64,000 nt of DNA from Mobula birostris (Eukaryota). The notes below the pieces were generated by a model. The model was not told where the DNA came from, did no database searches, and worked only from the letters and a program-made list of their open reading frames with translations. A program made the position numbers and the translations under genes. This document shows, piece by piece, positions 1 through 47,092 of this stretch. How positions within the stretch are numbered: position 1 is the first letter of the stretch; the number at the start of each line of letters is the position of its first letter. The DNA lies in contig NC_092385.1 in NCBI RefSeq assembly GCF_030028105.1, forward strand, positions 25,882,774 through 25,946,773. The letters are read 5' to 3'.

Positions 1-1037
1 GAGGGGGAGATCAAAAATGATAGGAGAAGACAAGAGGGGGAGGGATGGAGCCAAGAGCTGGACAGGTGATTGGCAAAAAGGATACGAGAGGATCATGGGA
101 CAGGAGGTCTGGGAAGAAAGACGGGGGGGGGGGGGGGGGGGGGACCCAGAGGATGGGCAAGGGGTATATTCAGAGGGACAGAGGGAGAAAAAGGAGAGTG
201 AGAGAAAGAATGTGTGTATAAAAATAAGTTACAGATGGGGTACGAGGGGGAAGGGGGGCATTAGTGGAAGTTAGAGAAGTCGATGTTCATGCCATCAGGT
301 TGGAGGCTACCCAGACGGAATAGAAGGTGTTGTTCCTCCAACCTGAGTGTGGCTTCATCTTTACAGTAGAGGAGGCCGTGGATAGGCATGTCAGAATGGG
401 AATGGGATGTGGAATTAAAATGTGTGGCCACTGGGAGATCCTGCTTTCTCTGGCGGACAGAGCGTAGATGCTCAGCAAAGCGATCTCCCAGTCTGCGTTG
501 GCTCTCGCCGATATATAAAAGGCCACATCGGGAGCACCGGACGCAGTATATCACCCCAGTCGACTCACAGGTGAAGTGTTGCCTCACCTGGAAGGACTGT
601 TTGGGGCCCTGAATGGTGGTAAGGGAGGAAGTGTAAGGGCATGTGTAGCACTTGTTCCGCTTACAAGGATAAGTGCCAGGAGGGAGATCAGTGGGGAGGG
701 ATGGGGGAGACGAATGGACAAGGGAGTTGCGTAGGGAGCGATCCCTGCGGAAAGCGGGGAGGGGAGGGAAAGATGTGCTTAGTGGTGGGATCCCGTTGGA
801 GGTGGCGGAAGTTATGGAGAATAATATGTTAGACCCGGAGGCTGGTGGGATGGTAGGTGAGGACCAGGGGAACCCTATTCCTAGTGGGGTGGCGGGAGGA
901 TGGAGTGAGAGCAAATGTGCGTGAAATGGGGGAGATGCGTTTAAGAGCAGAGTTGATAGTGGAGGAAGGGAAGCCCCTTTCTTTAAAAAAGGAAGACATC
1001 TCCCTCGTCCTAGAATGAAAAGCCTCATCCCATGAAC
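1..1037 (-). mobile_element. Penelope-like retroelement 3' part (RT C-terminal linker + GIY-YIG endonuclease + pyrimidine-rich 3' UTR), in PDHB intron 2; continues off the left edge
   Basis: Translation contains GTYPCKRNKCYTCPY...FTCESTGVIYCVRCSRCGLLYIGESQRRLGDRFAEH (Penelope-type GIY-YIG with CCHH); near-identical inverted copy at 1486-2430. Confidence 0.9.
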
Positions 1038-1067
1038 AGAACCCAGCCGAAGGTGACCCCACTGTAC

Positions 1068-1127
1068 CTGAGCGGCCGCGGGCGCCGTCCGATGAAACTC
1101 CCTCCGTGTCCGCAGACCAAGGTTGCT
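1068..1127 (-). CDS. PDHB: Pyruvate dehydrogenase E1 beta, coding exon 2 (SNLGLRTRREFHRTAPAAAQ)
   Basis: ttcacacag|...|gtacag boundaries, 60 nt, phase 0; resembles vertebrate PDHB transit-peptide end (RRFHWTAPAALQ); expected synteny next to KCTD6. Confidence 0.85.
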
Positions 1128-1210
1128 CTGTGTGAACAATGACAACTCTGCGTTACTGCACAAGCCACAACCACTTTTCGTTCGCAACGTCAAAAGAATT
1201 TCGATCGCAC

Positions 1211-1246
1211 CTTCCCACCGCGTAACAGAAACCTCAACGCCGCCAT
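1211..1246 (-). CDS. PDHB: Pyruvate dehydrogenase E1 beta, coding exon 1 (MAALRFLLRGGK, mitochondrial presequence start)
   Basis: aaATGGCGGCG start, AAG|gtgcga donor, 83-nt intron to exon 2, CpG-rich context. Confidence 0.82.
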
Positions 1247-1485
1247 TTCTCGATGCGCCCTCAGAAGGCTGTCTGATGCCGAAACCCAGCCAATCAGCTG
1301 GTACGACACTATCTATGACTCATCATGCTTCTGTTTCGACTAATGCGAGCTGCGCGTACACTGTAGTTACATACTCAGCTTTCATTGGTGGGTGAGGCAA
1401 GCTCTCCCCGCCCATCGCTTGCGACGTCACCCACCAAAGGAGGAGGTGCAAAGTTTGTTTAAAGACGCTTATCCCAAGAGTTTCC
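1247..1485 (-). promoter_or_regulatory. PDHB: PDHB 5' UTR/proximal promoter (CpG-rich; CCAAT boxes ~1290 and ~1384, GC box ~1406, CRE-like GACGTCA ~1423, TGACTCA ~1316)
   Basis: Unique CpG-rich DNA directly upstream of the ATG with housekeeping promoter motifs. Confidence 0.6.
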
Positions 1486-2430
1486 TTTCCCTCCCCCACT
1501 CTCTCTGCATTCCGCAGGGATCGCTCCCTACACAACTCCCTTGTCCATTCGTCCCCCCCCATCCCTCCCCACTGATCTCCCTCCTGGCACCTATCTGTGT
1601 AAGCGGAACAAGTGCTACACATACCCTTACACTTCCTCCCTTACCACCATTCAGGGCCCCAAACAGTCCTTCCAGGTGAGGCAACACTTCACCTGTGAGT
1701 CGACTGGGGTGATATACTGCGTCCGGTGCTCCCGACATGGCCTTTTATATATTGGCGAGACCCGACGCAGACTGGGAGACCGCTTTGCTGAACATCTACG
1801 CTCTGTTCGCCAGAGAAAGCAGGATCTCCCAGTGGCCACACATTTTAATTCCACATCCCATTCCCATTCTGACATGTCTATCCACGGCCTCCTCTACTGT
1901 AAAGATGAAGCCACACTCAGGTTGGAGGAACAACACCTTATATTCCGTCTGGGTAGCCTCCAACCTGATGGCATGAACATCGACTTCTCTAACTTCCGCT
2001 AGGCCCCACCTCCCCCTCGTATCCCATCTGTTACTCATTTTTATGCACACATTCTTTCTCTCACTCTCCTTTTTCTCCCTCTGTCCCTCTGAATATACCT
2101 CTTGCCCATCCTCTGGGTCCCCCCCCCTTGTCTTTCTTCCCGGACCTCCTGTCCCATGATCCTCTCGTATCCCCTTTTGCCTATCACCTGTCCAGCTCTT
2201 GGCTCCATCCCTCCCCCTCCTGTCTTCTCCTATCATTTTGGATCTCCCCCTCCCCCTCCAACTTTCAAATCCCTTACTCACTTTTCCTTCAGTTAGTCCT
2301 GACGAAGGGTCTCGGCCTGAAACGTTGACTGTACTTCTTCCTACAGATGCTGCTTGGCCTGCTGCGTTCACCAGCAACTTTGATGTGTGTTGCTTGAATT
2401 TCCAGCATCTGCAGAATTCCTGTTGTTTGC
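1486..2430 (+). mobile_element. Penelope-like retroelement 3' fragment (GIY-YIG ORF 1541-2002, 3' UTR, hammerhead motif, tail)
   Basis: GIY-YIG motif GVIYCVRCSRHGLLYIGET; stop at 2002; CT-rich UTR; hammerhead motif at 2295-2330. Confidence 0.9.
2295..2330 (+). ncRNA. Minimal type I hammerhead ribozyme motif (GUU cleavage triplet)
   Basis: AGTC-CTGACGA-agg(gtctcgg)cct-GAAA-CG-TT-GACT: stem I AGTC/GACT, core, stem II, palindromic stem III AACGTT. Confidence 0.75.
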
Positions 2431-2431
2431 G

Positions 2432-3455
2432 TATCCCAAGAGTTTGTTGGTTCATCAATATGTTGATCAATAAGGAAAATTATTATGATATGTTAACTAT
2501 TTTTACAGATGGATCAGAAGATAATTTAACTGGGAATGTTGGTATGGCACTTTTTGAGGCTGAATTACGGGTAACAATAAAGAAACGTCTTTCTAATCAT
2601 TTTTCAATGTATTCTGCAGAATTGGTTCTCATCATTTTGGGATTACAGTGCGTGGAGGAAATTTGTCCTTGCAAAGTTGTTAGTTGTTCTGATTCATTTT
2701 TGGTTTTGATGAGCCTTAAAACAGACCCTTCCAGCAGTAGGTCGGATTTACTATGGGCATCCTTCAAACTTTATATCATATTCAAAGTATTGATTTACAT
2801 GTGGTCTTCTTATGAATCCCTGCACATAGAGGTGTTGAGGGGAATGAGGGGGTTGATTGTATAGCCGAAAAATCTTTAAAATTCAACTGTGGATCGAGTC
2901 CTTCCACTTAGCAAATCAGAAGCTAAGGGGTTGGTAGGGTTAAGAATTAAGGGATTACGGCAATACTTGTGGGATAACGGGCATTAGGGGAGACAGTTTA
3001 AAGAATAGAGTTTATGGGAGAAGGGAGTCAAACAAGAAGGGAAGGATTATATTGACTCGATTTAGAATTGGGCATAGTATGCTTAATTTTTCCTTATATC
3101 TTGTTAGAAAACCGTCATTCTGGGTTGTATAGGTTTTGTCATCATTATGAAACAGTTGAACATATACTATTACAGTGTGAAAGAAATCAAATTCAGGCTT
3201 CGTTACAATCTTTCGGGTTGATAGTTTTCACTTAAAAACTTTAAGTTGCAGGAGTGACTTTAATTCACAGTATTGTCTTTCACAACTTACAATTTATAGG
3301 GCTTTTTTGGGGTAATTTGGTTTTCATTTGATTAGGAACTAGTAAGGGTATTTTTATTTCCCAACTCTCTACACCACACTCCAGTCCAGTTGGAGGCCGT
3401 AATACACCTTTAAGTTCGACTGCCAACTGCCATTAAAATTCAGAAAACGAAGAAG
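2432..3455 (+). mobile_element. Nimb/I-clade LINE 3' fragment with RNase H domain and zinc-knuckle remnant
   Basis: IFTDGS...SAEL RNase H motif, C..ETVEHILLQC motif, 3' UTR ccacactccagtccagttgg... ending in a GAA-rich tail. Confidence 0.7.
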
Positions 3456-8125: not shown

Positions 8126-8899
8126 CGTTTAAGTATATTTTCGTAATGATATGCTAAGGGCTGAAAGGTTGCTATGGATGGTTTCGAGTATAGAACTGAG
8201 GTTTCAGTCAGATCAGCCATGATCTTATTAAATGGCTGAGGAGGCCAGAGGAGAACAGTTGTCTATATCTGCTCCAAATTTGAATTCCTGTGTGTGTGCT
8301 GAATTCCGATTACTCTCTCTAAACACTGCTCCCTATCTCCCATCTCCACCTCCTTCTCACTTGCCATGGGTTCTCTTGTGCAGTGACGTCTTGAAACTAA
8401 CCTGTTTAACCTGATAAGAGATCCTCCTTTGTCTTGGGTATGATTCCACTCATCAGAGAATTTCCCCTACCGATTCATCATTTTACCAAGGCTCCTTAAT
8501 ACCCTTCTTGATCAGATGCTGTCTTGGTGTCAAGGGCAGTCACTCTCACCATCTCTGATTTCAGCTTTTAAATACATTTGTACCAGACGAGATGCTGCTT
8601 GACTTGCTGAGTTCCTCAAGCATTTTGTGTGTGTTGTTCAATACAGTTTTTCTACTATCTGTAGAATCTCTTGTGTTTAAACTTATATTTGTCTATTTTG
8701 TTGGTTGCTGAAATTTCATGCGAGACGTACACAGCAGACCAGCAGGGTCTGCGCAGAGAGAAACATGGTTAAGGTTTCTCGTCAATGACTTTTCATTAAA
8801 TCATACTCTGCGGAACACTTCCCACCCGAGGATAATTTATTTTTGCCTTTATGAATGATGGTGGTACTCTGTTCAAATGGTCACAGCTGTTGTTAATGA

Positions 8900-9290
8900 T
8901 TGGGCCGGTGCTGCCTAGAGCGCATGCTCCACTGCCTGCCGTTCCAGGCAGACTCAAAACGCGACGACGGTATCGCGGAGCGGCTGTCGGTACCGCTTCT
9001 GCCGAGGGACGGACCAGCTTCTCCGGGGGCTGCGATTGAAAGTTTCGCGTCCAGATGGATAATGGAGACTGGGGCCAGATGGTGAGTAGGGTTGTGGAGG
9101 GATTGGAGCTACGCCCCGGGCCGCAGTGAGCCCGCAGGCGGCGCTGGGGCTTCAGGCGGAGCTGCTGCGTGGCGGCCGGCTGGCCGGACGTGGGGGACAC
9201 AGTGCGATTTGCCCCTGGCACTGATCGCTGACCCGTGTGGTTGCGGGCGCTGATAACTGCTGAGCGGGCAGTCATGCCGCGGATACCACA
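8900..9290 (+). promoter_or_regulatory. KCTD6: CpG island at the KCTD6 5' end
   Basis: GC/CpG-rich segment around the first coding exon. Confidence 0.65.
9055..9081 (+). CDS. KCTD6: KCTD6 first coding exon (MDNGDWGQM)
   Basis: ATG...ATG|gtgagt donor; matches the known KCTD6 N-terminus MDNGDWGYM. Confidence 0.9.
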
Positions 9291-10259
9291 GTCTTTTTGC
9301 TAACGTTAAGATATTTGGAGAGAGTCGAGATTGTAAACCATTTGTTGCTTTTATTTGTCTCAGCTACATGTAATTAGCAACCCGTCTATGTAACGCTGCG
9401 AAGTTTCTGTTTTGGTTAATGCAAGATTAATTTTGTTCTACATCTTGTTTATCTCGGCAACACACAAGTATCAATTCTACCATGAAACGTAAGGAGGGAA
9501 GCTTCTATTTTTGTTCGCCGTAAAATGAATTTTGTTTGACTTTGTATGCTAGTATTAATGTAGCTTTTGGGTCTATTTGGCATTTTTCCCGTCCCTTTAA
9601 GGCACTTTGATCAAATCAATGAAAGAAATGGGCCACATGATTTAGTTACCAGAATATGTTTTCTTTTCGTACTCTTTATTGCATTTTTTTAATTCAATCT
9701 ATGCTGGTTAAGCAAAAATACAGCACATTGCATTGTAGGCGTTAATGTGCACTAAGTCTGATGTCAGATGAGCCTGTCAATGTGAAATACTGCTAAAGTG
9801 GTATTTAATCACGTCAAGGGGGAAAAACAAACTTTTCCCCCAAATTCTCTAGTACTGTTAGAGCTGGAGTAAATGTTTCAATGTTATGCGCTCTATGGTT
9901 AGGTCTTTAATACTAGTTGTTTTTGTGTGAAGGGAGTTGTATAATAGCACAATGAATTGTGAATGAAATATTTGCACGTTAAGTGAAATATATTTTGCAT
10001 AATTCGGTAAAAATATGGAATCACTAACTGGGTAATTATTTTTACAGTGGATCATTATGGCCTGTAATGTACTACCATGGCTTTTGTAGTGTTCAAAAGG
10101 GAACTGGATATGTACCTGTAGGGAAAGAAGCTCTATGGAGAACTGAAACCAGCTGTATTGCTATTATATGTATTCATTTGTCTGAGATTTTCCCTTCCAA
10201 GTTCAAACAATTCTCTGACTCTATCATGTTCTAGTTTTGTTTTTTTTTTCTTTTTTCAG

Positions 10260-10946
10260 ATGGGTGACCCAGTCACTCTTAATGTTGGAGGACATCTGTA
10301 TTCAACATCAATTTCTACTCTCACGAGGTACCCAGACTCCATGTTGGGTGTAATGTTCAGGGGAGATTTCCCCACTGCCAAAGACTCCCAAGGAAATTAT
10401 TTCATTGATAGAGATGGACCTCTCTTCAGATACATCTTGAACTTTCTAAGGACAGCAGATCTGACACTACCTCATGGCTTTAAAGAAATTGATCTCCTTA
10501 GAAAAGAGGCTGATTTTTATCAGATAGAACCTTTAATTCATTGTCTAAATGACCCTAAGCCCCTTTATTCATTAGATACCTTTGAGGAGGTGGTGGAACT
10601 GTCTAGCACACGCAAACTTTCCAAATATTCCAATCCAGTAGCTGTTATAATAACACAATTGACAATCACAACGAAAGTGCATGCTCTCCTTGAGGGTATC
10701 TCAAACTATTTCACAAAATGGAACAAACACATGATGGATACCAGAGATTTTCAGGTGTCCTTCACATTTGGACCCTGTGATTATCACCAGGAGGTGTCTC
10801 TTCGTGTTCATCTGATGGAATACATTGCAAAGCAGGGCTTTACTATTAGAATGACGAGGGTACATCATATGAGTGAGAGAGCAAATGAGAACACTGTAGA
10901 ACACAACTGGACTTTCTGCAGACTAGCCCGGAAAACTGATGAATGA
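10260..10946 (+). CDS. KCTD6: BTB/POZ domain-containing protein KCTD6, main coding exon (joined protein 237 aa)
   Basis: Polypyrimidine tract + ttcag|ATG; DPVTLNVGG...YFIDRDGPLFRYILNFLR T1-BTB domain and KCTD6 C-terminus HNWTFCRLARKTDE. Confidence 0.96.
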   Translation: MGDPVTLNVGGHLYSTSISTLTRYPDSMLGVMFRGDFPTAKDSQGNYFIDRDGPLFRYILNFLRTADLTLPHGFKEIDLLRKEADFYQIEPLIHCLNDPKPLYSLDTFEEVVELSSTRKLSKYSNPVAVIITQLTITTKVHALLEGISNYFTKWNKHMMDTRDFQVSFTFGPCDYHQEVSLRVHLMEYIAKQGFTIRMTRVHHMSERANENTVEHNWTFCRLARKTDE

Positions 10947-22835: not shown

Positions 22836-23666
22836 CTAAAATGCAGATAATAAAAATCACATTAGTTCTAATGAATCAAAATAGAACTTGCATTCAAAGG
22901 TAACTTTTGAAGTCATATTTGACAAATTTGACTATATTTGGAACATACACTTTTTCCACAGAACTGACATGGGATCAATTTGACCCTGCTACAGTACATA
23001 CTAGATTTCAGTTTGAAAACAAGCCAGCTTTTGAAATAAGGATCTTGTTATTTCTGCACCAACTTCTGCATGCTGCTTTATGGCTGAGAGTTTGGATACT
23101 CCTACTTGCAGTATAATAGATGCTTTTGTTTATCTGAAATCATCAAAATTCTAAGACCCAAGTCTATCATAGGGCTGCTATGGAGGTTCATCATAATCCA
23201 GTCTACATGTGAAAAGAGATATTGTGAGTGTGCATAGTTTGTTGACCATGATGAGATATGAAAACCAGGTTAGATATGAAAAGGTGACATGTATTTCCAT
23301 TATTAAGCCTGTTTATTAAAACCACTGAGCTAGTTTGAAAATCATAAATACTACTCTTCCACTCTTCTCATGCAACAATGCTTTATGGCTGTAACTTAGA
23401 AACTAATGTCCATGTAAAGGTTTAAATTAGTGATAATTACATATAACTACTAAATAACTTTGTTCTTCCATACTCTCATCTAAATTTGTGCCTCAGATTT
23501 AAAAGTCTGATCTCCAAAATGGCAGGGAAGCAAGCTTCAGTAAAAGCCTTGACTTAAAAGCTTATCAGCAGAAAAATTAGGCTGAGCTTGCAAAATCAGA
23601 TCTTGGGAAGGACAACATGGTGCCATTTCAAGGCAAAAACTAGCAATTTGATGAAATGGGTGTCAT

Positions 23667-26100
23667 ATGGGTGACTTTAACTTCCCTAATATTGATTGGC
23701 ACCTGATTAGTTCCAAGGGTTTAGATGGGGCAGAGTTTGTTAAGTGTGTCCAGGACAGATTCCTGTCACAGTATGTGGACAGGCCGACCAGAGGGAATGC
23801 CATATTAGATCTAGTACTAGGTAATGAACTGGGTCAGGTCACAGATCTCTCAGTGGGTGAGCATCTAGGGGACAGTGACCACTGCTCCCTGGCCTTTAGC
23901 ATTATCATGGAAAAGGACAGAATCAGAGAGCACAGGAACATTTTTAACTGGGGAAAGGCAAATTATGAGGCTATAAGGCTAGAACTTGCGGGTGTGAATT
24001 GGGATGATGTTTTTGCAGGGAAATATACTATGGACATGTGGTCGATGTTTAGAGATCTCTTGCGGGATGTTGGGGATAAATTTGTCCCGGTGAGGAAGAT
24101 AAAGAATGGTAGGGTGAAGGAACCATGGGTGACAAGTGAGGTGGAAAATCTAGTCTGGTGGAAGAAGGCAGCATACATGAGGTTTAGGAAGCAAGGATCA
24201 GATGGGTCTATTGAGGAATATAGGGAAGCAAGAAAGGAGCTTAAGAAGGGGCTGAGAAGAGCAAGAAGGGGGCATGAGAAGGCCTTGGCAAGTAGGGTAA
24301 AGGAAAACCCCAAGGCATTCTTCAATTATGTGAAGAAAAAAAGGGTGACAGGAGTGAAGGTAGGACCGATTAGAGATAAAGGTGGGAAGATGTGCCTGGA
24401 GGCTGTGGAAGTGCGCGAGGTCCTCAATAAATACTTCTCTTCGGTATTCACCAATGAGAGGGAACTTGATGACAGTGAGGACAATATGAGTGAGGTTGAT
24501 GTTCTGGAGCATGTTGATATTAAGGAAGAGGAAGTGCTGGAGTTGTTAAAATACATTAGGACAGATAAGTCCCCGGGGCCTGACAGAATATTCCCCAGGC
24601 CGCTCCACGAGGCAAGAGAAGAGATTGCTGAGCCTCTGGCTAGGATCTTTATGTCCTCGTTGTCCACGGGAATGGTACCGGAGGATTGGAGGGAGGCGAA
24701 TGTTGTCCCCTTGTTCAAAAAAGGTAGTAGGGATAGTCCAGGTAATTATAGACCAGTGAGCCTTATGTCTGTGGTGGGAAAGCTGTTGGAAAAGATTCTT
24801 AGAGATAGGATCTATAGGCATTTAGAGAATCATGGTCTGATCAGGGACAGTCAGCATGGCTTTGTGAAGGGCAGATCGTGTCTAACAAGCCTGATAGAGT
24901 TCTTTGAGGAGGTGACCAGGCATATAGATAAGGGTAGTGCAGTGGATGTGATCTATATGGATTTTAGTAAGGCATTTGACAAGGTTCCACACGGTAGGCT
25001 TATTCAGAAAGTTAGAAGGCATGGGATCCAGGGAAGTTTGGCCAGGTGGATTCAGAATTGGCTTGCCTGCAGAAGGCAGAGGGTGGTGGTGGAGGGAGTA
25101 CATTCAGATTGGAGGATTGTGACTAGTGGTGTCCCACAAGGATCTGTTCTGGGACCTCTACTTTTCGTGATTTTTATTAACGACCTGGATGTGGGGGTAG
25201 AAGGGTGGGTTGGCAAGTCTGCAGACGACACAAAGGTTGGTGGTGTTGTAGATAGTGTAGAGGACTGTCAAAGATTGTAGAGAGACATTGATAGGATGCA
25301 GAAGTGGGCTGAGAAGTGGCAGATGGAGTTCAACCCAGAGAAGTGTGAGGTGATACACTTTGGAAGGACAAACTCCAAGGCAGAGTACAAAGTAAATGGC
25401 AGGATACCTAGTAGTGTGGAGGAGCAGAGGGATCTCGGGGTACATGTCCACAGATCCGTGAAAGTTGCCTCACAGGTGGATAGGGTAGTTGAGAAAGCTT
25501 ATGGGGTGTTAGCTTTCATAAGTCGAGGGATAGAGTTTAAGTCGCAATGTAATGATGCAGCTCTATAAAACTCTGGTTAGGCCACACTTGGAGTACTGTG
25601 TCCAGTTCTGGTCACCTCACTATAGCTAGGATCTGGAAGCATTGGAAAGGGTACAGAGGAGATTTACCAGGATGCTGCCTGGTTTAGAAAGTATGCATTA
25701 TGATCAGAGATTAAGGGAGCTAGGGCTTTACTCTTTGGAGAGAAGGAGGATGAGAGGAGACATGATAGAGGTGTACAAGATAATAAGAGGAAAAGATAGA
25801 GTGGATAGCCAGTGCCTCTTCCCCAGGGCACCACTGCTCAATACAAGAGGACATGTAAGGTAAGGGGTGGGAAGTTCAAGGGGGATATTAGAGGAAGGTT
25901 TTTTACTCAGAGAGTGGTTGGTGCGTGGAATGCACTGCCTGAGTCAGTGATGGAGGCAGATACACTAGTGAAGTTTAAGAGACTACTAGACAGGTATATG
26001 GAGGAATTTAAGGTGGGGGCTTATATGGGAGGCAGGGTTTGAGGGTTGGCACAATATTGTGGGCCGAAGGGCCTGTACTGTGCTGTACTATTCTATATAT
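23667..26100 (+). mobile_element. Young 5'-truncated CR1 LINE (APE end + RT; 537-aa open stretch)
   Basis: [39 protein letters not shown], (F>S)ADD; CR1 3' UTR. Confidence 0.93.
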
Positions 26101-34999: not shown

Positions 35000-36425
35000 A
35001 AACATAGAAACATAGAAAATAGGTGCAGGAGTAGGCCCTTCGGCCCTTCGAGCCTGCACCACCATTCAGTATGATCATGGCTGATCATCCAACTCAGAAC
35101 CCTGTACCAGCCTTCCCCCCTCATACCCCTTGATCCCTTTAGCCACAAGGGCCATATCTAACTCTCTCTTAAATATAGCCAATGAACTGGCCTCAATTGT
35201 TTCCTGTGGCAGAGAATTCCACAGATTCACCACTCTCTGTGTGAAGAAGTTTTTCCTAATCTTGGTCCTAAAAGGCTTCCCCTTTATCCTCAAACTGTGA
35301 CCCCCTCGTTCTGGACTTCCCCAACATCGGGAACAATCTTCCTGCATCTAGCCTGTCCAATCCCTTTAGGATTTTATATGTTTCAATAAGATCCCCCCTC
35401 AATCTTCTAAATTCCAACGAGTATAAGCCTAGTCGATCCAGTCTTTCATCATATGAAAGTCCTGCCATCCCAGGAATCAATCTGGTGAACCTTCTTTGTA
35501 CTCCCTCTATGGCAAGGATGTCTTTTCTCAGATTAGGGGGCCAAAACTGCACACAATACTCCAGGTGTGGTCTCACCAAGGCCTTGTACAACTGCAGTAG
35601 TACCTCCCTGCTCCTGTACTTGAATTCTCTTGCTATGAATGCCAGCATACCATTCGCCTTTTTCACCGCCTGCTGTATCTGCATGCCCACTTTCAACGAC
35701 TGGTGTATAATGACACCCAGGTCTCGTTGCACCTCCCCTTTTCCTAATCGGCCACCAGATAATAATCTGTTTTCCTCTTTTTGCCACCAAAGTGGATAAC
35801 CTCACATTTATCCACATTAATTTGCATCTGCCATGAATTTGTCCACTCACCTAACCTATCCAAGTCACCCTGCATCCTCTTAGCATCCTCCTCACAGCTA
35901 ACACTGCTGCCCAGCTTTGTGTCATCTGCAAACTTGGAGATGCTGCAATTAATTCCCTCGTCTAAATCATTAATATATATTGTAAACAACTGGGGTCCCA
36001 GCACTGAGCCTTGCGGTACCCCACTAGTCACTGCCTGCCATTCTGAAAAGGTCCCGTTTATTCCCACTCTTTGCTTCCTGTCTGCCAACCAATTCTTTAT
36101 CCACATCAATACCTTACCCCCAATACCGTGTGCTTTAAGTTTGCACACTAATCTCCTGTGTGGGACCTTGTCAAAAGCCTTTTGAAATTCCAAATATACC
36201 ACATCCACTGGTTCTCCCCTATCCACTCTACTAGTTGCATCCTCAAAAAATTCTATGAGATTCGTCAGACATGATTTTCCTTTCACAAATCCATGCTGAC
36301 TTTGTCCGATGATTTCACCGCTTTCCAAATGCGCTGTTATCACATCTTTGATAACTGATTCTAGCATTTTCCCCACCACCGATGCCAGGCTAACTCTAGC
36401 ATTTTCCCCACCACTGATGTCAGTT
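35000..36425 (-). mobile_element. Young 5'-truncated CR1 LINE
   Basis: RT with KFADDTK; (TTCTATGT)n-type tail at ~35000. Confidence 0.92.
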
Positions 36426-36671
36426 TTCAAAGCATAATAGTCACTTTTCAAAAACCCTTCTAAAAAGATGAATTGATTTGGATGCAAAAACTATGGAGAT
36501 TTCAATACAATATGATCTGCTTGCATTAGAAAATTATAATACTTCACATAACAGCTTTTTAAAATGGTATATTTAATACTGACATGTCTTGAAGCTGGAT
36601 TTCATCATGGAAAATATAAAACAATTGAAACAATGCTAGAAAATTACTAGAAAAACAAAATGTTGATTTAC

Positions 36672-36947: not shown

Positions 36948-39900
36948 GGCATCCGTTAGTTTCATCAGACCATGGATTTGCCCCTTGGAAGATTTCCAGG
37001 GCACAGGCCTGGGCAAGGTTGTATGCAGGGCCGGACTTTAGGCAGGACTAGGCTGGGCTGCAGCCCAGGGGCCAGAGCTGCAGAGGGGCCCAAAATAGGT
37101 AGCTATCATCATGGTGGACAAAAAAAAAATACGAGAGTGGAGCACAGAAAAGAAAAAGAAACGAGAAAAAGAGGACCGTGAGAAAGAAGCATTAAAAAAG
37201 ACATTGAAATTGACAGAATTTTTAAAACCTGTTCTTGATGACGCAGCAGTACATCGCTCTTGTCACAGTCTGAGACCAGTGGACAAATGGAGACTTGTTC
37301 AACAGCTAGCGCTAGCACCAGCGTTAGCACAGGACCACCGTCCTTGCCACAATCAGCAGCTAACGTTGAAGAGGCAGAGAGCATGACTTTGGGATTCCCA
37401 ACTACAGAGGCCTCCAAACAACCAAGTCCGGCCACCATTAATGTTAATGTTACCGCTACTGAGGATCCTTACAGCCCTGATCCTGCTCGCTGGGGAAAGG
37501 AAATGTTAGATGATTCAGTTCGAGCATACTGGGCTAAGAAAGGGCCGGAGACCTGCCAGAATAAGGATGTGGATATCAAAGCTTCGGAACGAGTATACTA
37601 ACAGCAGAGAAGTTTTTTTCCCTCCAAATTTCACTTCAAACACAAGCTCGTAAATGGGCAATGTCTCTTATATTCCCCTTCCACTGGCTGTGTGTTTTGT
37701 TCTGCATGCCACATCTTCAATGATGGTAACTGTCAGTCCATCTTTGAAACTGGCTTTAACGACTGGAAACATGCCGCTGAGCACATAGGATTGCATGAAA
37801 ATAGAAGACACTGCAGGAAAACGATACTAACCTACGTTACACTAGCGTCTGATAGCGGAAGAATAGATACAGAACTGCAAAAACAGTTCGAGTCAGAGTG
37901 TGTCTACTGGACCGACGTATTAAGAAGAGTGGTGGCGGTTGTGAAGTTTTTGGTCAAGAGGGGATTGGCTATCCGAGACTCCAGTGACATACTTGGCAGG
38001 CCTGATAATGGCAACTACATGGGCATTCTACAGGTAATAAGTGAGTTTGACCCATTTTTGAAGGCGCACATACAGAAATTTGGAAATGCAGGATCAGGCA
38101 CCCCTTCATATCTTTCACCTAAAACATGTGAGGAGTTTATTGAGCTCATGAGCCATCGAGTTCTGTCAGAGATCGTCAGTGAAGTCAAAATGGCCAAATA
38201 CTTTTCGATTAGCATCGATTCAAGCACAAATGTTGCACACGTAGATCAGCTCACATTCATTTTACGTTATGTGTCAACTGATGAAAACATTCAGGAACGA
38301 TTCTTACGATTTCTACTCATTGAGAGCCACACAGGGGAGGCTTTATGTGAGTCTGTGCTCAAAGTTTCAGGAGCGATGAATATTGACATAAGCAACTGCA
38401 GGGGGCAGTGCTATGACAATGCTGCAAATATGTCCGGTGCATACAAAGGCTTACAATCCCACATCAAGGAAATCAATTCACTTGCTGAGTGGGTTCCATG
38501 TTCAACACACACATTGAATCTCGTTGGAATCAACAATGTCAACTGTTGTGTTGAAACAGCTGATTTTTCCAGCTTCGTACAGAATGTGTTCAACTTCTGC
38601 TCCAAGTCAACTTCTAGGTGGAAGGTGGTGACTGCAGGACTTCAACCTAATGCGAACAAGCGCATTGAAACTCTGAAGTTTCTCTCTAATACTACAGGGG
38701 CTGCACATGCAGAAGCCACACAGGCATTGTGCGGAAATTATGCCAATATTCAAGATTTGTGAAGGAGCATTGCAGATGACATTAATCAGAATGTGGCAAC
38801 TAGAAATGAAGTGCGGTCACTATACAAAAAAATGGACAAGCTTGAGATAGCTTTTCTGAGCAAATTGTGGCATTGTATTCTTCAGCGCTTTGAAACTGCA
38901 AGTGTTGCATTGCAAGCTGTAAGTCTAGTCCTGTGTATGTGGATTTGGTGAGATCACTACAGGGATACATAGCAAGCTTGCATGATCGATTTGATATTTT
39001 TGAGACCCAAGCTAAAACAATGTCTCCAACAGTCTCACAAGTGTACAAAGAAGACACCCAACGACAAAGAAAACGTAAAGCCTGTCTGGGTGAATCCACA
39101 ACAGCTGATGTTGGCTTGTCAGCCAGAGAAAAATTCTCAGCTACTGTTTTTTTGGTCGTGGTGGATGGATTACTTGCAGAAATTGATTGCAGATTTGCAT
39201 CATATAATGACCTTAACAACACATTTGGTATCCTAAACAATATCCCTTCTCTCTCTGTACAAGATCTGTGCGAGAGAGCATCTGAACTCTAAAGCAGATA
39301 TTCAGCTGACCTGGAGTTAGACTTTGTGGAGGAGATTGTCCATTTCAGGGAATTTGTAAGTGACAAAGATATTTCATCCACAACAGAGCTTTTATGCTTC
39401 CTCAGAGAAAAAACTTGCAGGTCATCTTCCCAAATGTAAGCATTGCTTTGAGACTTTACCTGACTCTCCCTGTCACAAATGCAAGTGAGCGATCCTTCTC
39501 CAAGCTCAAGCAAGTGAAAAATAGGCTCAGATCCACAATGGGACAGGACAAACTGAATCATCTTACTCTGATGTCACTTGAAAGTGATCTTGTTCAGAAA
39601 CTGGATTTTAGTGATCTGATCAAGGACTTTGCTGCAAAGTAATCCAGAAGAACTAGGCTTTAATTTTGAAAAACTTCGTAACTATCTAGGCTTGTGTGTC
39701 AGTGCTGTTCCTGTTTTTGTGGCAATAGGCTAATAGTTGACTGTTTACAAACCTAGCAAGTAATAAGTGGTCTTTACTCTGCAAGCCACACAGCACAGCA
39801 ATAGGTTATTATGTGCTAGATCTCATTTTTCAAAAAGATTGTTGGAGTATTGTCAAGTTTCCTAGTTTGCCATAGTGCCATCTCTCTTGGCCTTTTGGTC

Positions 39901-42695: not shown

Positions 42696-45600
42696 AGATG
42701 AAAGTCCCGGAAGACCACATCTGCACCAGGTGTGTCGAGTTGCAGCTCCTGAGAAACTGCATTAGGGAACCGGAACTGCAACTCAATGACCTTCGTCTGG
42801 TCAGGGAGAGTGAGGAGGTGACAGAGGGGAGCTATAGGCAGGTAGTCACCCCGGGACCACAGGAGACAGAGAAGTGGGTAACAGTCAGGAGAGGGAAGGG
42901 CAAGAAGCAGGTGCTAGAGAGTACCCCAGTGGCTGTCCCTCCCTTAATAATAAGTACTCCTGTTTGAGTACTGTTGGGGGGGATGGCCTACCTGGGGGAA
43001 GCAACAGTGGTCACGCCTCTGGCACAGAGTCTCACCCTGTGGCTCAGAAGGGTAGGAAAAGGAAGAGGATGGCAGCAGTGATAGGGGACTCTATAGTTTG
43101 GGGGTCAGATAGGCGATTCTGTGGACGCAGGAAAGAAACGCAGATGGTAGTCTGCCTCCCAGGTGCCAGGGTCCAGGATGTTTCTGATCGCGTCCATGAT
43201 ATCTTGAAGTGGGAAGGAGAACAGCCAGAGGTCATGGTACATATTGGTACCAATGACATAGATAGAAAAAGGGAGGAGGTCCTGAAAACAGATCACAGGG
43301 AGTTAGGAAAGAAGTTGAGAAGCAGGACCTCAAAAGGTAGTAATCTCGGGATTACTGCCTGTGCCACGTGACAGTGAGTATAGGAATAGAATGAGGTGGA
43401 GGATGAATGCATGGCTGAGGGTTTGGAGTAGGGGGCAGGGATTCAGATTTCTGGATCATTGGGACCTCTTCTGGGGCAGGTGTGACCTGTACAAAAAGGA
43501 CAGTTACACTTGAATCCGAAGGGGACCAATATCCTGGCAGGGAGGTTTGCTAAGGCTATTGGGGAGAGTTTAAACTAGAATTGCTGGGGGGTGGGAACTG
43601 AACTGAAGAGATAGAGGAAGAGGCCGTTGGCTCACAAATAGAGAAAGCTTGGAGACAGTGTGAAAGGGAGGATAGGCGGGTGATAGAGAAGGAACGCGCT
43701 CAGACTGATGGTTTGAGATGTGTCTATTTTAATGCGAAGAGTATTATGAATAAAGTGGATGAGCTTAGAGTGTGGATCAGCACTTGGAGCTATGATGTTG
43801 TGGCCATTACAGAGACTAGGTTGGTACAGGAGCAGGAATGGCTACTTCAAGTGCTAGGCTTTAGATGTTTCAGAAAGGATAGGGAGGGAGGCAAAAGAGG
43901 TGGGGGCATGGCACTGTTGATCAGAGATAGTGTCACGGTTTAGAAAAGGAGGAAGTCATGGAGAGGTTGTCTACAAAGTCTCCGAGGGTGGAAGTTAGGA
44001 ATAGTAAGGGGTCAATAACTCCGGATATTTTTTTTATAGACCATCCAATAGTTACAGGGACATCAAGGAGCAGATGGGAGACAGATTCTGGAAAGGAGTA
44101 ATAATAACAGGGTTGTTGTGGTGGGAGGTTTTAATTTTCCAAATATTGATAGGCATCTCCCTAGAGTGAGGGGTTTAGATGGGGTAGAGTTTGTTAGGTG
44201 TGTTCAGGAAGGTTTCTTGACACAATATGTAGATAAGCCTACAAGAGGAGAGGCTGTATTTGATCTGGTATTGGGAAATGAACCTGGTCAGGTGTCAGGT
44301 CTCTCAGTGGGAGAGCATTTTGGAAATAGTGATCACAATTCTACATCCTTTACCACAGCATTGGAGAGGGATAGGAACAGACAAGATAGGGGAAACGTTT
44401 AATTGGAGTAAGGGGAAATATAAGGCTATCAGGCAGGAACTTGGGAGCATAAATTGGAAACAGAGGTTCACAGGGAAATGTACGGAAGAAATATGGCAAA
44501 TGTTCAGGGAATATTTGTGTGGGGTTCTGAGTATGTATGTTCCAATAAGACATGGAAAGGATGGTAGGGTATAAGATCCATGGTGTACAAAGGCTGTTGT
44601 AAATCTAGTCAGGAAGAAAAGAAGTTACGAAAGGTTCAAAAAACTAGGTAATGATAGGAATCTAGAAAATTAAGGCTAGCAGGAAGGAGCTTAAGAATGA
44701 AATTAGGAGAGCCAGAAAGGGCCATGAGAAGGCCTTGGCGGACAGGAATAAGGAAAACCCCAAGGCATTCTACAAGTATGCAAGAGGATAAGACGTGAGA
44801 GAATAGGACCAATCAAGTGCGACAGTGGAAAAGTATGTACGGAACCGGAGGAAATAGTGGAGGTACTAATGAATACTTTGCTTCAGTACTCACTATGGAA
44901 AAGGATCTTGGCGATTGTAGGGATGACTTGCCGTGGACTGAAAAGTTTGAGCATGTAGATATTAAGGAAGAGGATGTGCTGGAGTTTTTGGAAAGCATCA
45001 AGATGGCTAAGTCACCAGGACCGGATGGGATGTACCCCAGGCTACTATGGGAAGTGAAGGAGGAGATTGCTGAGCCTCTGGCAATGATCTTTGCATCATC
45101 AATGAGAACAGGAGAGGTTCCGGATGATTGGAGGGTTGCAGATGTTGTTCCCTTATTTAAGAAAGGGAGTAGGGATAGCCCAGGAAATTATAGGCTAGTG
45201 AGTCTTACTTCAGTGGTTGGTAAGCTGATGAAGAAGATCCTGAGAGGCAGGATTTATGAACATTTGGAGAGGCATAATATGATTAGGAATAGTCAGCATA
45301 GTTTTGTCAAAAGCAGGTTGTGCCTTTCGAGCCTGATTGAATTTTTTGAGGATGTGACAAAACATATTGATGAAGGTAGAGCCCTAGATGTAGTGTACAT
45401 GGATTTTAGCAAGGCATTTGATAAGGTACACCATGCAAGGTTTATTAAGAAAGTAAGGAGGCATGGGATCCAAGGGGACATTTCTTTGTGGATCCAGAAC
45501 TGGCTTGCCCACAGAAGGCAAACAGTGGTTGTAGATGGGTTATATTCTGCATGGAGGCCGGTGACCAGTGTGTGTCTCAGGGTTCTATTCTGGGACCCCT

Positions 45601-47092
45601 AATCCTTGTGATTTTTAAAAATGACCTGGATGAGGAAATGGAAGGATGGGTTAGTAAATTTGCTGATGACACAAAGGTTGGGGGTGTTGTGGACAGTGTG
45701 GAGGGCTGTCAAAGGTTACAATGGGACATTGATAGGATGCAAAACTGGGCTGAGAAGTGGCAGATGGAGTTCAACTCAGATAAGTGTGAGGTGGTTCATT
45801 CTGGTAGGTCAAATATGATGGCAGAATATAGCATTGATTAGATTAGATTAGATTCAACTTTATTGTCATTTTGCCGAGTACAGATACAAAGCCAATGAAA
45901 TGCATTTAGCACCTGACCAGAAATGCAAAGAATAGTGTTATTTACAAAATAACTGTGAATAAAAAATGTGCTACAGCACACAAATATAAAAGTACAGAGA
46001 CAGTACAATACGGATGCAATACTGCTTAGCACTGTGATCAGAGGTTCAGCAGTATCACAGCCTCAGGGAAGAAGCTCTTCCTGTGCCTGCTGGTGCGGGA
46101 GCTGGTGCTGGTAGCACCTACCGGATGGGAGGAGAGTAAAAAGTCCATGGTTAGGGTGAGATGCATCCCTGATAATGCTTTTCGCCCTGCCCAGGCAGCA
46201 TTTATGGTAGATGTTCTCAATGGAGAGCAATTGGGTGCCAATAATCCACTGGGCAGTTTTCACCACACGCTGGAGTGCTTTGCGGTCTGATACGGGACAA
46301 TTGCCATATCACACTGAGATGTAGTTGGTGAGTATGCTCTCAATGGTACAGCGGTAAAAGTAAATGGTAAGACTCTTGGCAGTGTGGAGGATCAGAGGGA
46401 TCTTGGGGTCTGAGCCCATCAGACACTCAAAGCTGCTACATTGGTTGACTCTGTGGTTAAGAAGGCATATGGTGCATTGGCCTTCATCAATCGTGGGATT
46501 GAGTTTAAGAGCCAAGAGGTAATGTTGCTGCTCTATAGGACCCTGGTCAGATCCCACTTGGAGTACTGTGCGCAATTCTGATCGCCTCACTACAGGAAGG
46601 ACGTGAAAACCATAGAAAGGGTGCAGAGAAGATTTACAAGGACGTTGCCTGGATTGGGGAGCATGCCTTATGAGAACAGGTTGAGTGAACTTGGCCTTTT
46701 CTCCTTTGAGTGACGGAGGATGAGAGGCGACCTAGTAGAGGTATACAAGATAATGAGAGGCATTGATCGTGTGGATAGTCAGAGGCTTTTCCCTAGGGCT
46801 GAAATGGCTAGCACGAGAGGTCACAGTTTTAAGGTGCTTGGAAGTAGGTACAGAGGAGATGTCGGGGTAAGTTTTTTTCTGCAGAGAGTGGTGAGTGCGT
46901 GGAATGGGTTGCTGGTGGTGGTGGTGGAGGCGGAAACAATAGGTTATTTTAAGAGACTCCTGGATGGCTACATGGAGCTTAGAAAAATAGAGGGCTATGG
47001 GTAAAGCCTAGGTAGTTCTAAGGTAGGGACATGTTCGGCACAGCTTTGTGGGCCGTAGGGCCTGCATTGTGCTGTAGGTTTTCTATGTTTCT
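42696..47092 (+). mobile_element. Near full-length CR1 LINE (ORF1 zf/LZ + SGNH esterase; ORF2 APE + RT), decayed and split by a Rex1 insertion
   Basis: HICTRCVELQLL, VIGDSIV, HIGTND (ORF1); [37 protein letters not shown] (ORF2); tttctatgtttcta tail. Confidence 0.92.
45838..46339 (-). mobile_element. Rex1/Babar-type 3' fragment nested in CR1
   Basis: FYRCTIESILTN...LLPSGR; (CTAAT)n tail at ~45838-45855. Confidence 0.8.

What the first reader, a model, noticed from the sequence alone, without database searches (positions are those of the whole stretch)
1..2430. PDHB promoter and first two exons are caged between two near-identical inverted Penelope copies
Seen: only ~450 bp of unique DNA (1038-1485: exons 1-2 plus promoter) separates a minus-strand copy starting ~30 bp into intron 2 from a plus-strand copy ~240 bp upstream of the ATG. 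The arms (1-~770 versus ~1486-2252) are highly similar. Inference: this long inverted repeat could permit inversion of the promoter cassette of an essential gene. The pre-mRNA and the divergent upstream transcript would both read Penelope in sense. It may reflect two targeted insertions or a single complex event.
Basis: partly seen in the sequence, partly recalled or inferred. Interest (0 to 1): 0.7.

Follow-up and report, generated by a model that had tools for sequence, protein, structure and literature searches.

The report
Two separate retrotransposon hits bracket PDHB
Two copies of a very common jumping gene landed at different times on either side of the start of the metabolic gene PDHB and form a mirror-image pair; the gene's RNA is still spliced correctly across the inner copy, so the pair is likely a tolerated accident and not a switch, though a rare damaging flip is untested.

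Summary
The layout is real: PDHB exons 1-2 and promoter (450 bp, 1034-1483) lie between two outward-facing 5'-truncated Neptune-type Penelope-like copies. The arms are about 910 bp and 92.8% alike, not near-identical. They are two independent insertions of different age. Each has its own target duplication (13 and 14 bp) and none encloses the pair. A related organism has the intronic copy but an empty upstream site; a more distant one has an empty intronic site (one sample each). The family's true one-event twins (19 of 40 loci) differ: one outer duplication, at most 155 bp between arms, 95-99% identity. No conversion between the arms. Spliced contigs join exon 2 to exon 3. No clear promoter targeting: 9 of 58 promoter-like loci against 18 of 180 random tiles, p 0.24. 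A long-armed cage is rare by chance (about 0.02-0.08 expected genome-wide). Inverted alleles could not be tested. The scan noted the twin layout before in this genome and promoter-bracketing inverted repeats in other genomes. Verdict: ordinary.

The parts
1..1033 (-). Arm A: older 5'-truncated Penelope-like copy in PDHB intron 2, sense to the pre-mRNA; 1174 bp, running on to 141 bases left of the window; ends without the ~35-bp tail
   Evidence: open frame of 256 aa with weak GIY-YIG match; present in organism B, empty site in organism D
1034..1046 (.). Inner copy of arm A's 13-bp target-site duplication; the outer copy lies 142-154 bases left of the window start
1068..1127 (-). PDHB exon 2 (60 bp)
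   Evidence: spliced to exon 3 in contigs X19 and X10
1211..1246 (-). PDHB exon 1, coding part (ATG at 1246)
1247..1469 (-). 5' leader and CpG-island promoter: CCAAT at 1290 and 1384, GC box at 1408, CRE-like site at 1423 (motif names recalled; function inferred)
   Evidence: CpG o/e 1.02 over 1034-1483 against a genome median of 0.26
1470..1483 (.). Inner copy of arm B's 14-bp target-site duplication
1484..2431 (+). Arm B: younger 5'-truncated Penelope-like copy, 948 bp, GIY-YIG end plus 3' pseudo-LTR with hammerhead-like motif and tail
   Evidence: GIY-YIG E 1.9e-5; empty site in organism B
2432..2445 (.). Outer copy of arm B's target-site duplication

Best explanation
The pair is two independent insertions of one abundant Penelope-like retrotransposon family, the intronic copy first and the upstream copy later, and it is likely a tolerated, functionless by-product. 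Shown: separate target duplications, empty sites in relatives at two depths, correct exon 2-exon 3 splicing, and no sharing of derived variants between the arms. Inferred: each copy arose by target-primed reverse transcription with 5' truncation; both persisted because exons, splice sites and promoter motifs were spared; recombination between the arms is likely rare because they are 93% alike, 714 bp apart and share at most 112 identical bases in a row; an inversion would separate exons 1-2 from the rest of the gene and would likely be a null allele removed by selection.
For: Own 13-bp and 14-bp duplications, best outer match 4 bp. Organism B: a contig covers 1013-1483 and goes on with 30 of 30 letters equal to 2446-2475, so arm B is absent, while arm A's start is present. 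Organism D: the match starts exactly at 1034 and the loose letters are the outer intron-2 flank (19 of 30 letters identical), so arm A is absent. A differs from the family majority at 38 of 903 sites and B at 17 of 904 (p 0.006); they share 1 derived allele, which 23 of 50 other copies also carry. The longest identical run is no longer than expected (p 0.34). Native twins look different: 16 of 19 have one outer 13-16-bp duplication, spacers are -5 to 155 bp, identity 95.4-99.0%. Young copies make up 1.8% of 600 kb sampled. One of 58 promoter-like loci also has copies on both sides.
Against: Under uniform insertion only about 0.02-0.08 promoters genome-wide should be caged by two copies of 500 bp or more within 300 bp (rests on 4 events and an assumed 20,000 promoters), so pure chance is a rare draw and mild open-chromatin preference is not excluded (odds ratio 1.65, p 0.24). 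The tree test did not reject A and B as sisters (AU p 0.55), though they were sisters in 0 of 200 bootstrap trees. Private changes alone give 16 against 6, p 0.052. The pair has one tailed and one untailed arm, like 18 of 19 native twins; for independent singles (13 tailed, 7 untailed, 1 other of 21) that has about a 45% chance. Each relative is one sample seen as contigs. Neutrality itself was not tested.
Confidence: 0.88

Rival explanations
1. One complex insertion event: the family's usual head-to-head twin, formed around or capturing the promoter.
For: Head-to-head orientation and one-tailed, one-untailed ends match native twins. AU test does not reject sisterhood.
Against: Two separate duplications and no outer one; organism B has A without B; the arms are more different than all 19 twins examined; the spacer is host DNA in its native place and direction.
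Confidence: 0.02
2. Two independent insertions, but drawn to the open, unmethylated promoter of a housekeeping gene in the germ line.
For: A long-armed cage is rare under uniform insertion. Promoter-like loci are not depleted of the family: 9 of 58 against 18 of 180 tiles; within 300 bp 4 of 58 against 6 of 180.
Against: The difference is not significant (p 0.24). 0 of 40 relatives have CpG-island-like 3' flanks. This rival changes the cause of the landing sites only and is compatible with the best explanation.
Confidence: 0.25
3. The arms recombine often enough to keep an inverted, PDHB-null allele in the population or in somatic cells, or act as a switch.
For: About 910 bp of inverted homology at 93% brackets exons 1-2. 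Inversion between inverted repeats disrupts F8 in 1-5% of severe haemophilia A (PMC7507428, passages).
Against: No conversion tract or crossover trace between the arms. Duplication halves are in register and exons collinear. The F8 repeats are described as almost identical. Hairpin instability of inverted Alu pairs is described for spacers up to about 100 bp (PMC3215922, passages), against 714 bp here. No recombinase site or switch logic was seen.
Confidence: 0.05
4. The copies were kept because they regulate PDHB RNA, through a read-through hairpin RNA or the intronic hammerhead motif.
For: An RNA spanning both arms would pair over about 910 bases. Oppositely oriented promoter motifs in pseudo-LTRs were proposed in PMC3846280 (passages). 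Arm A is in sense to the pre-mRNA.
Against: Arm A's core reads CGGACGA instead of CTGANGA; 8 of 82 copies have a changed core, so this is not special. PLE hammerheads cleave poorly in vitro (PMC4209133, abstract) and the Anolis one needs its protein (PMC11167929). No poly(A) hexamer in either arm. Splicing is normal in organisms with one arm and with both.
Confidence: 0.05

Closest known systems
Endonuclease-bearing Penelope-like elements, Neptune/Nematis type (PMC8557442, passages)
   Same: One ORF with RT then C-terminal GIY-YIG, CX2-5CxxC motif before GIY-YIG, 5' truncation, optional 30-40-bp tail, target duplications, frequent inverted 5'-truncated partner.
   Different: Nothing in the element. 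The two PDHB copies are not each other's inverted partner but two single insertions.
Inverted-pLTR insertion unit, e.g. Adineta vaga Pen2a (PMC3846280, passages)
   Same: Head-to-head arms, tail on one side.
   Different: There one duplication encloses the whole unit and the arms abut; here there are two duplications, 450 bp of native host DNA between, and different ages.
Head-to-head inverted Alu pairs (PMC3215922, abstract and passages; PMC7999016, passages)
   Same: Two independent insertions of one abundant family forming an inverted repeat around host DNA.
   Different: Different element class and longer arms; the spacer is well above the roughly 100-bp range of hairpin instability.
F8 int1h-1/int1h-2 and the intron 1 inversion (PMC7507428, passages)
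   Same: One repeat in an early intron and one upstream, inverted; a crossover would flip the first exons away from the gene.
   Different: The F8 repeats are almost identical and about 126 kb apart with proven recurrent inversions; here 93% identity, 0.7 kb apart, and no inverted allele shown.

Membership tests
EN+ Penelope-like element (Neptune/Nematis type) | Single ORF with RT followed by C-terminal GIY-YIG endonuclease | tested here: met
   Near-full-length relative L090: 820-aa open frame, RVT_1 E 4.7e-4 (below Pfam cut-off), GIY-YIG E 7e-5 (above cut-off); arm B GIY-YIG E 1.9e-5
EN+ Penelope-like element (Neptune/Nematis type) | CX2-5CxxC motif upstream of GIY-YIG, absent in Penelope/Poseidon | tested here: met
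   C-x4-C-x2-C in L090 and in both arms; definition from PMC8557442
EN+ Penelope-like element (Neptune/Nematis type) | Optional 30-40-bp tail, target-site duplication, minimal hammerhead motif in the pseudo-LTR | tested here: met
   Two end classes about 35 bp apart; duplications; 56 of 82 copies with both core motifs intact (pattern recalled); Rfam found nothing at its gathering scores
EN+ Penelope-like element (Neptune/Nematis type) | Placement in the Neptune clade by RT phylogeny | not tested
   No RT tree with reference elements was built; Neptune and Nematis were not told apart
Single-event inverted (head-to-head) PLE insertion | One target duplication outside both arms | tested here: not met
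   Best outer match 4 bp; each arm has its own duplication
Single-event inverted (head-to-head) PLE insertion | Arms gained together and abutting | tested here: not met
   Organism B has A without B; 450 bp of host DNA between
Single-event inverted (head-to-head) PLE insertion | Tail on one arm only | tested here: met
   A untailed, B tailed, but about 45% likely by chance
Inversion mediated by inverted repeats (F8 int1h type) | Inverted repeats bracketing the first exons | tested here: met
Inversion mediated by inverted repeats (F8 int1h type) | Almost identical, homogenised repeats | tested here: not met
   92.8%, longest identical run 112 bp, no conversion
Inversion mediated by inverted repeats (F8 int1h type) | Inverted alleles exist | not testable with these tools
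   Only contigs were offered and none spans an arm

The most novel reading that the evidence does not exclude
This Penelope family prefers open housekeeping promoters, and the two dated insertions turned PDHB's promoter and first exons into a cassette that flips at a low rate or is read through into a 900-base hairpin RNA, giving this lineage a transposon-made off-state for pyruvate dehydrogenase that its relatives with one arm or none lack.
Probability: 0.05. Interest if true: 0.6.

Novelty: new member of a known kind. Interest (0 to 1): 0.2.

Why it matters
As it stands, little: it shows that a 450-bp promoter-plus-two-exon unit of a core metabolic gene keeps being spliced correctly with young retroelement copies 34 bp and 237 bp away. 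It is a clean natural series (no arm A; arm A only; both arms) in three related organisms, usable to measure how a 93%-identical, 0.9-kb inverted repeat behaves at an essential vertebrate promoter. It is also a warning for annotation: in this family head-to-head pairs are usually one event, and only the target duplications tell such twins from chance pairs.

Tried and rejected
Rfam scan of the window: 0 matches at gathering scores. Tree of 57 copies: star-like, 3 of 54 inner branches well supported, inconclusive on sisterhood. First read-laying over a whole arm was swamped by repeat copies and most joints were cut from view; run X5's contig ended at 1471 and said nothing on arm B. Organism C's contig matched 1292-1497 without a difference but enters arm B by only 14 letters, under the 31-letter bridging rule, so it is not counted. 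Arm B's absence in organism D is inferred, not seen: its 97 loose letters were shown only in part. No RNA holder is on record as RNA; two guessed-RNA contig sets left 1241-1483 uncovered, which is no evidence on start sites or divergent transcription. A shared promoter with the KCTD-type BTB gene at 10122-10946 was considered and set aside: it has its own CpG island at about 8600-9400. The second promoter motif was not enriched over its control (28 against 82); only its 6 island-like loci of 28 were used. Selection against the intronic hammerhead: rejected as unsupported. Paper searches for PDHB with retrotransposon insertion (1 unrelated paper), Penelope in elasmobranchs (2 unrelated) and inverted Alu pairs (nothing relevant) found no report of this locus; the library lacks most subscription papers, and no supplements were read.

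Full report
Setting. The window is G000:C20:25882774-25946773 of a 4.0-Gb genome. Earlier scan notes call the genome ray-like; I did not test that.

Observation. Exon 1 (1246-1211), an 83-bp GT..AG intron and exon 2 (1127-1068) lie on the minus strand. Further exons lie 7.8-19.8 kb left of the window on the same strand (located with recalled motifs); the best Transket_pyr match in the genome is there and matches solved pyruvate dehydrogenase E1 beta at E 5e-57. Inverted arms are found at 1-768 and 1494-2252 in five ungapped pieces. With the neighbouring DNA added they align over 922 columns at 92.8%. The homologous ends are 714 bp apart because arm A has 262 more 5' bases.

The element. Both arms are 5'-truncated 3' ends of one family. 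[quoted passage not shown] My first working label, Poseidon, was wrong. Young copies (88% or more alike) gave 27 hits, 20 events by hand count, 1.8% of bases, in 60 evenly spaced 10-kb samples.

Two events, not one. Arm A is flanked by its own 13-bp duplication and arm B by its own 14-bp duplication; the best match between the outer flanks is 4 bp. For comparison I fetched 10 kb around 40 of the 58 other loci returned by two searches, the first 20 for each arm. In 19 of 40 the copy has a head-to-head partner -5 to 155 bp away; 16 of these 19 have one outer 13-16-bp duplication (the others 6, 7 and 9 bp), 18 of 19 have the tail on one arm only, and identity is 95.4-99.0%, median 97.9. That is the known inverted layout (PMC8557442 and PMC3846280, passages), and PMC11167929 (parts 1-2 of 4 read) shows both strands cut and extended and two start sites that explain the tail. 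The PDHB pair scores 94.7% by the same measure, below all 19. In a 52-copy alignment A and B are 5.9% apart, against 1.3-3.9% for 11 twins (a twelfth same-locus pair, 5.4 kb apart, left out) and a median of 3.4% for 1213 other pairs; these copies were picked for likeness to A or B, which lowers distances. A carries 38 and B 17 differences from the majority, and they share one common allele. Against this reading: a tree test did not reject A and B as sisters (p 0.55), and the pair has the one-tailed pattern of twins, about 45% likely by chance.

Relatives settle the order. The run search listed 24 runs, 20 holding some of the spacer; I laid 7 different runs in two calls. In organism B a 565-letter contig covers 1013-1483 with 11 listed substitutions, continues left into arm A-like letters, and continues right with 30 letters identical to 2446-2475: an empty site for arm B with one copy of the duplication. 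In organism D an 815-letter contig matches from exactly 1034 and its loose letters on the left are the outer intron-2 flank (19 of 30 identical, then a shorter microsatellite): an empty site for arm A. So A came first and B later, as their divergences suggest. Each relative is one sample, seen as contigs; fixed or polymorphic cannot be told.

The gene still splices. In a guessed-RNA run of this organism (another sample) and one of organism B, contigs carry exon 2 joined to 30 letters identical to the start of exon 3, across arm A. Neither arm has a poly(A) hexamer in sense. Arm A's hammerhead-like core is changed at one position and arm B's cleavage triplet is GTT; 56 of 82 copies have both intact and 8 of 82 have a changed core (motif recalled, Rfam silent). 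PLE hammerheads have low activity in vitro (PMC4209133, abstract).

Inversion. A crossover in the arms would flip exons 1-2 and the promoter away from exons 3 onward (inference). The assembled haplotype is not flipped: duplication halves are in register and exons are collinear. There is no conversion trace: 1 shared derived allele, and a longest identical run of 112-113 bases, matched or exceeded in 34% of simulations. Hairpin instability of inverted Alu pairs is described up to about 100-bp spacers, with weak depletion at larger distances (PMC3215922, abstract and passages; PMC7999016, passages). The F8 intron 1 inversion uses almost identical repeats (PMC7507428, passages). Inverted alleles could not be looked for, as no contig spans an arm.

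Targeting or chance. An NRF1-like motif (name recalled) occurs 521 times against 4 for its control. Of 83 distinct sites examined, 52 were CpG-island-like; with 6 of 28 sites of a second motif this gave 58 promoter-like loci. Nine of 58 carry a young copy within 1.5 kb, against 18 of 180 random 3-kb tiles (odds ratio 1.65, p 0.24); 1 of 58 (L251) and 1 of 180 have copies on both sides. None of 40 relatives has an island-like 3' flank. Under uniform insertion about 2 promoters should have a young copy of any length within 300 bp on each side, but only 0.02-0.08 should have two long ones (20,000 promoters assumed, 4 events behind the long-copy rate). So the long-armed cage is a rare draw, picked out after the fact, and a mild promoter preference stays open.

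Verdict. Real, explained and ordinary: two staggered insertions forming a chance inverted pair, a new member of a known kind. Searches found no paper on this locus.

Noticed in passing
L080-L119 (40 relatives of the arms): 19 of 40 are head-to-head twins; 18 of 19 have the tail on one arm only; twin arms are 1-4% different yet share more derived alleles (3-14) than unrelated pairs (mean 2.1), which fits copying from the same or related templates. Known layout, already noted by the scan.
   Followed up: partly
L251 (G000:C3:139463049-139466049): A second promoter-like CpG island with small twins of this family on both sides, about 1060 bp apart: a short-armed version of the PDHB cage.
   Followed up: no
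142-170 bases left of the window start: The outer duplication of arm A adjoins a (GAACA)n run that is about three units longer than at the empty site of organism D; it may have grown at insertion or later.
   Followed up: partly
200-600 bases left of the window start: CpG o/e 0.81 beyond arm A: the insertion seems to have split the original CpG island of PDHB.
   Followed up: no
window 8600-9400 and 10122-10946 (+): A KCTD-type BTB gene, divergent from PDHB, with its own CpG island; KCTD6 neighbours PDHB in human (recalled), identity as KCTD6 not shown.
   Followed up: partly
window 2446-3400: Arm B landed at the edge of an old, broken LINE-like piece with a weak RNase H match (E 0.001); it is repeated in all laid DNA runs.
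   Followed up: no
window 1128-1210: The guessed-RNA contig of organism B (X10) keeps the 83-bp intron 1 while splicing intron 2; the contig of this organism (X19) stops at the intron 1 boundary.
   Followed up: no
window 23655-25280, 35744-36490, 44799-45602, 37602-38762: Further mobile-element frames: three RT matches (one with an endonuclease domain) and one DUF4371 match.
   Followed up: no
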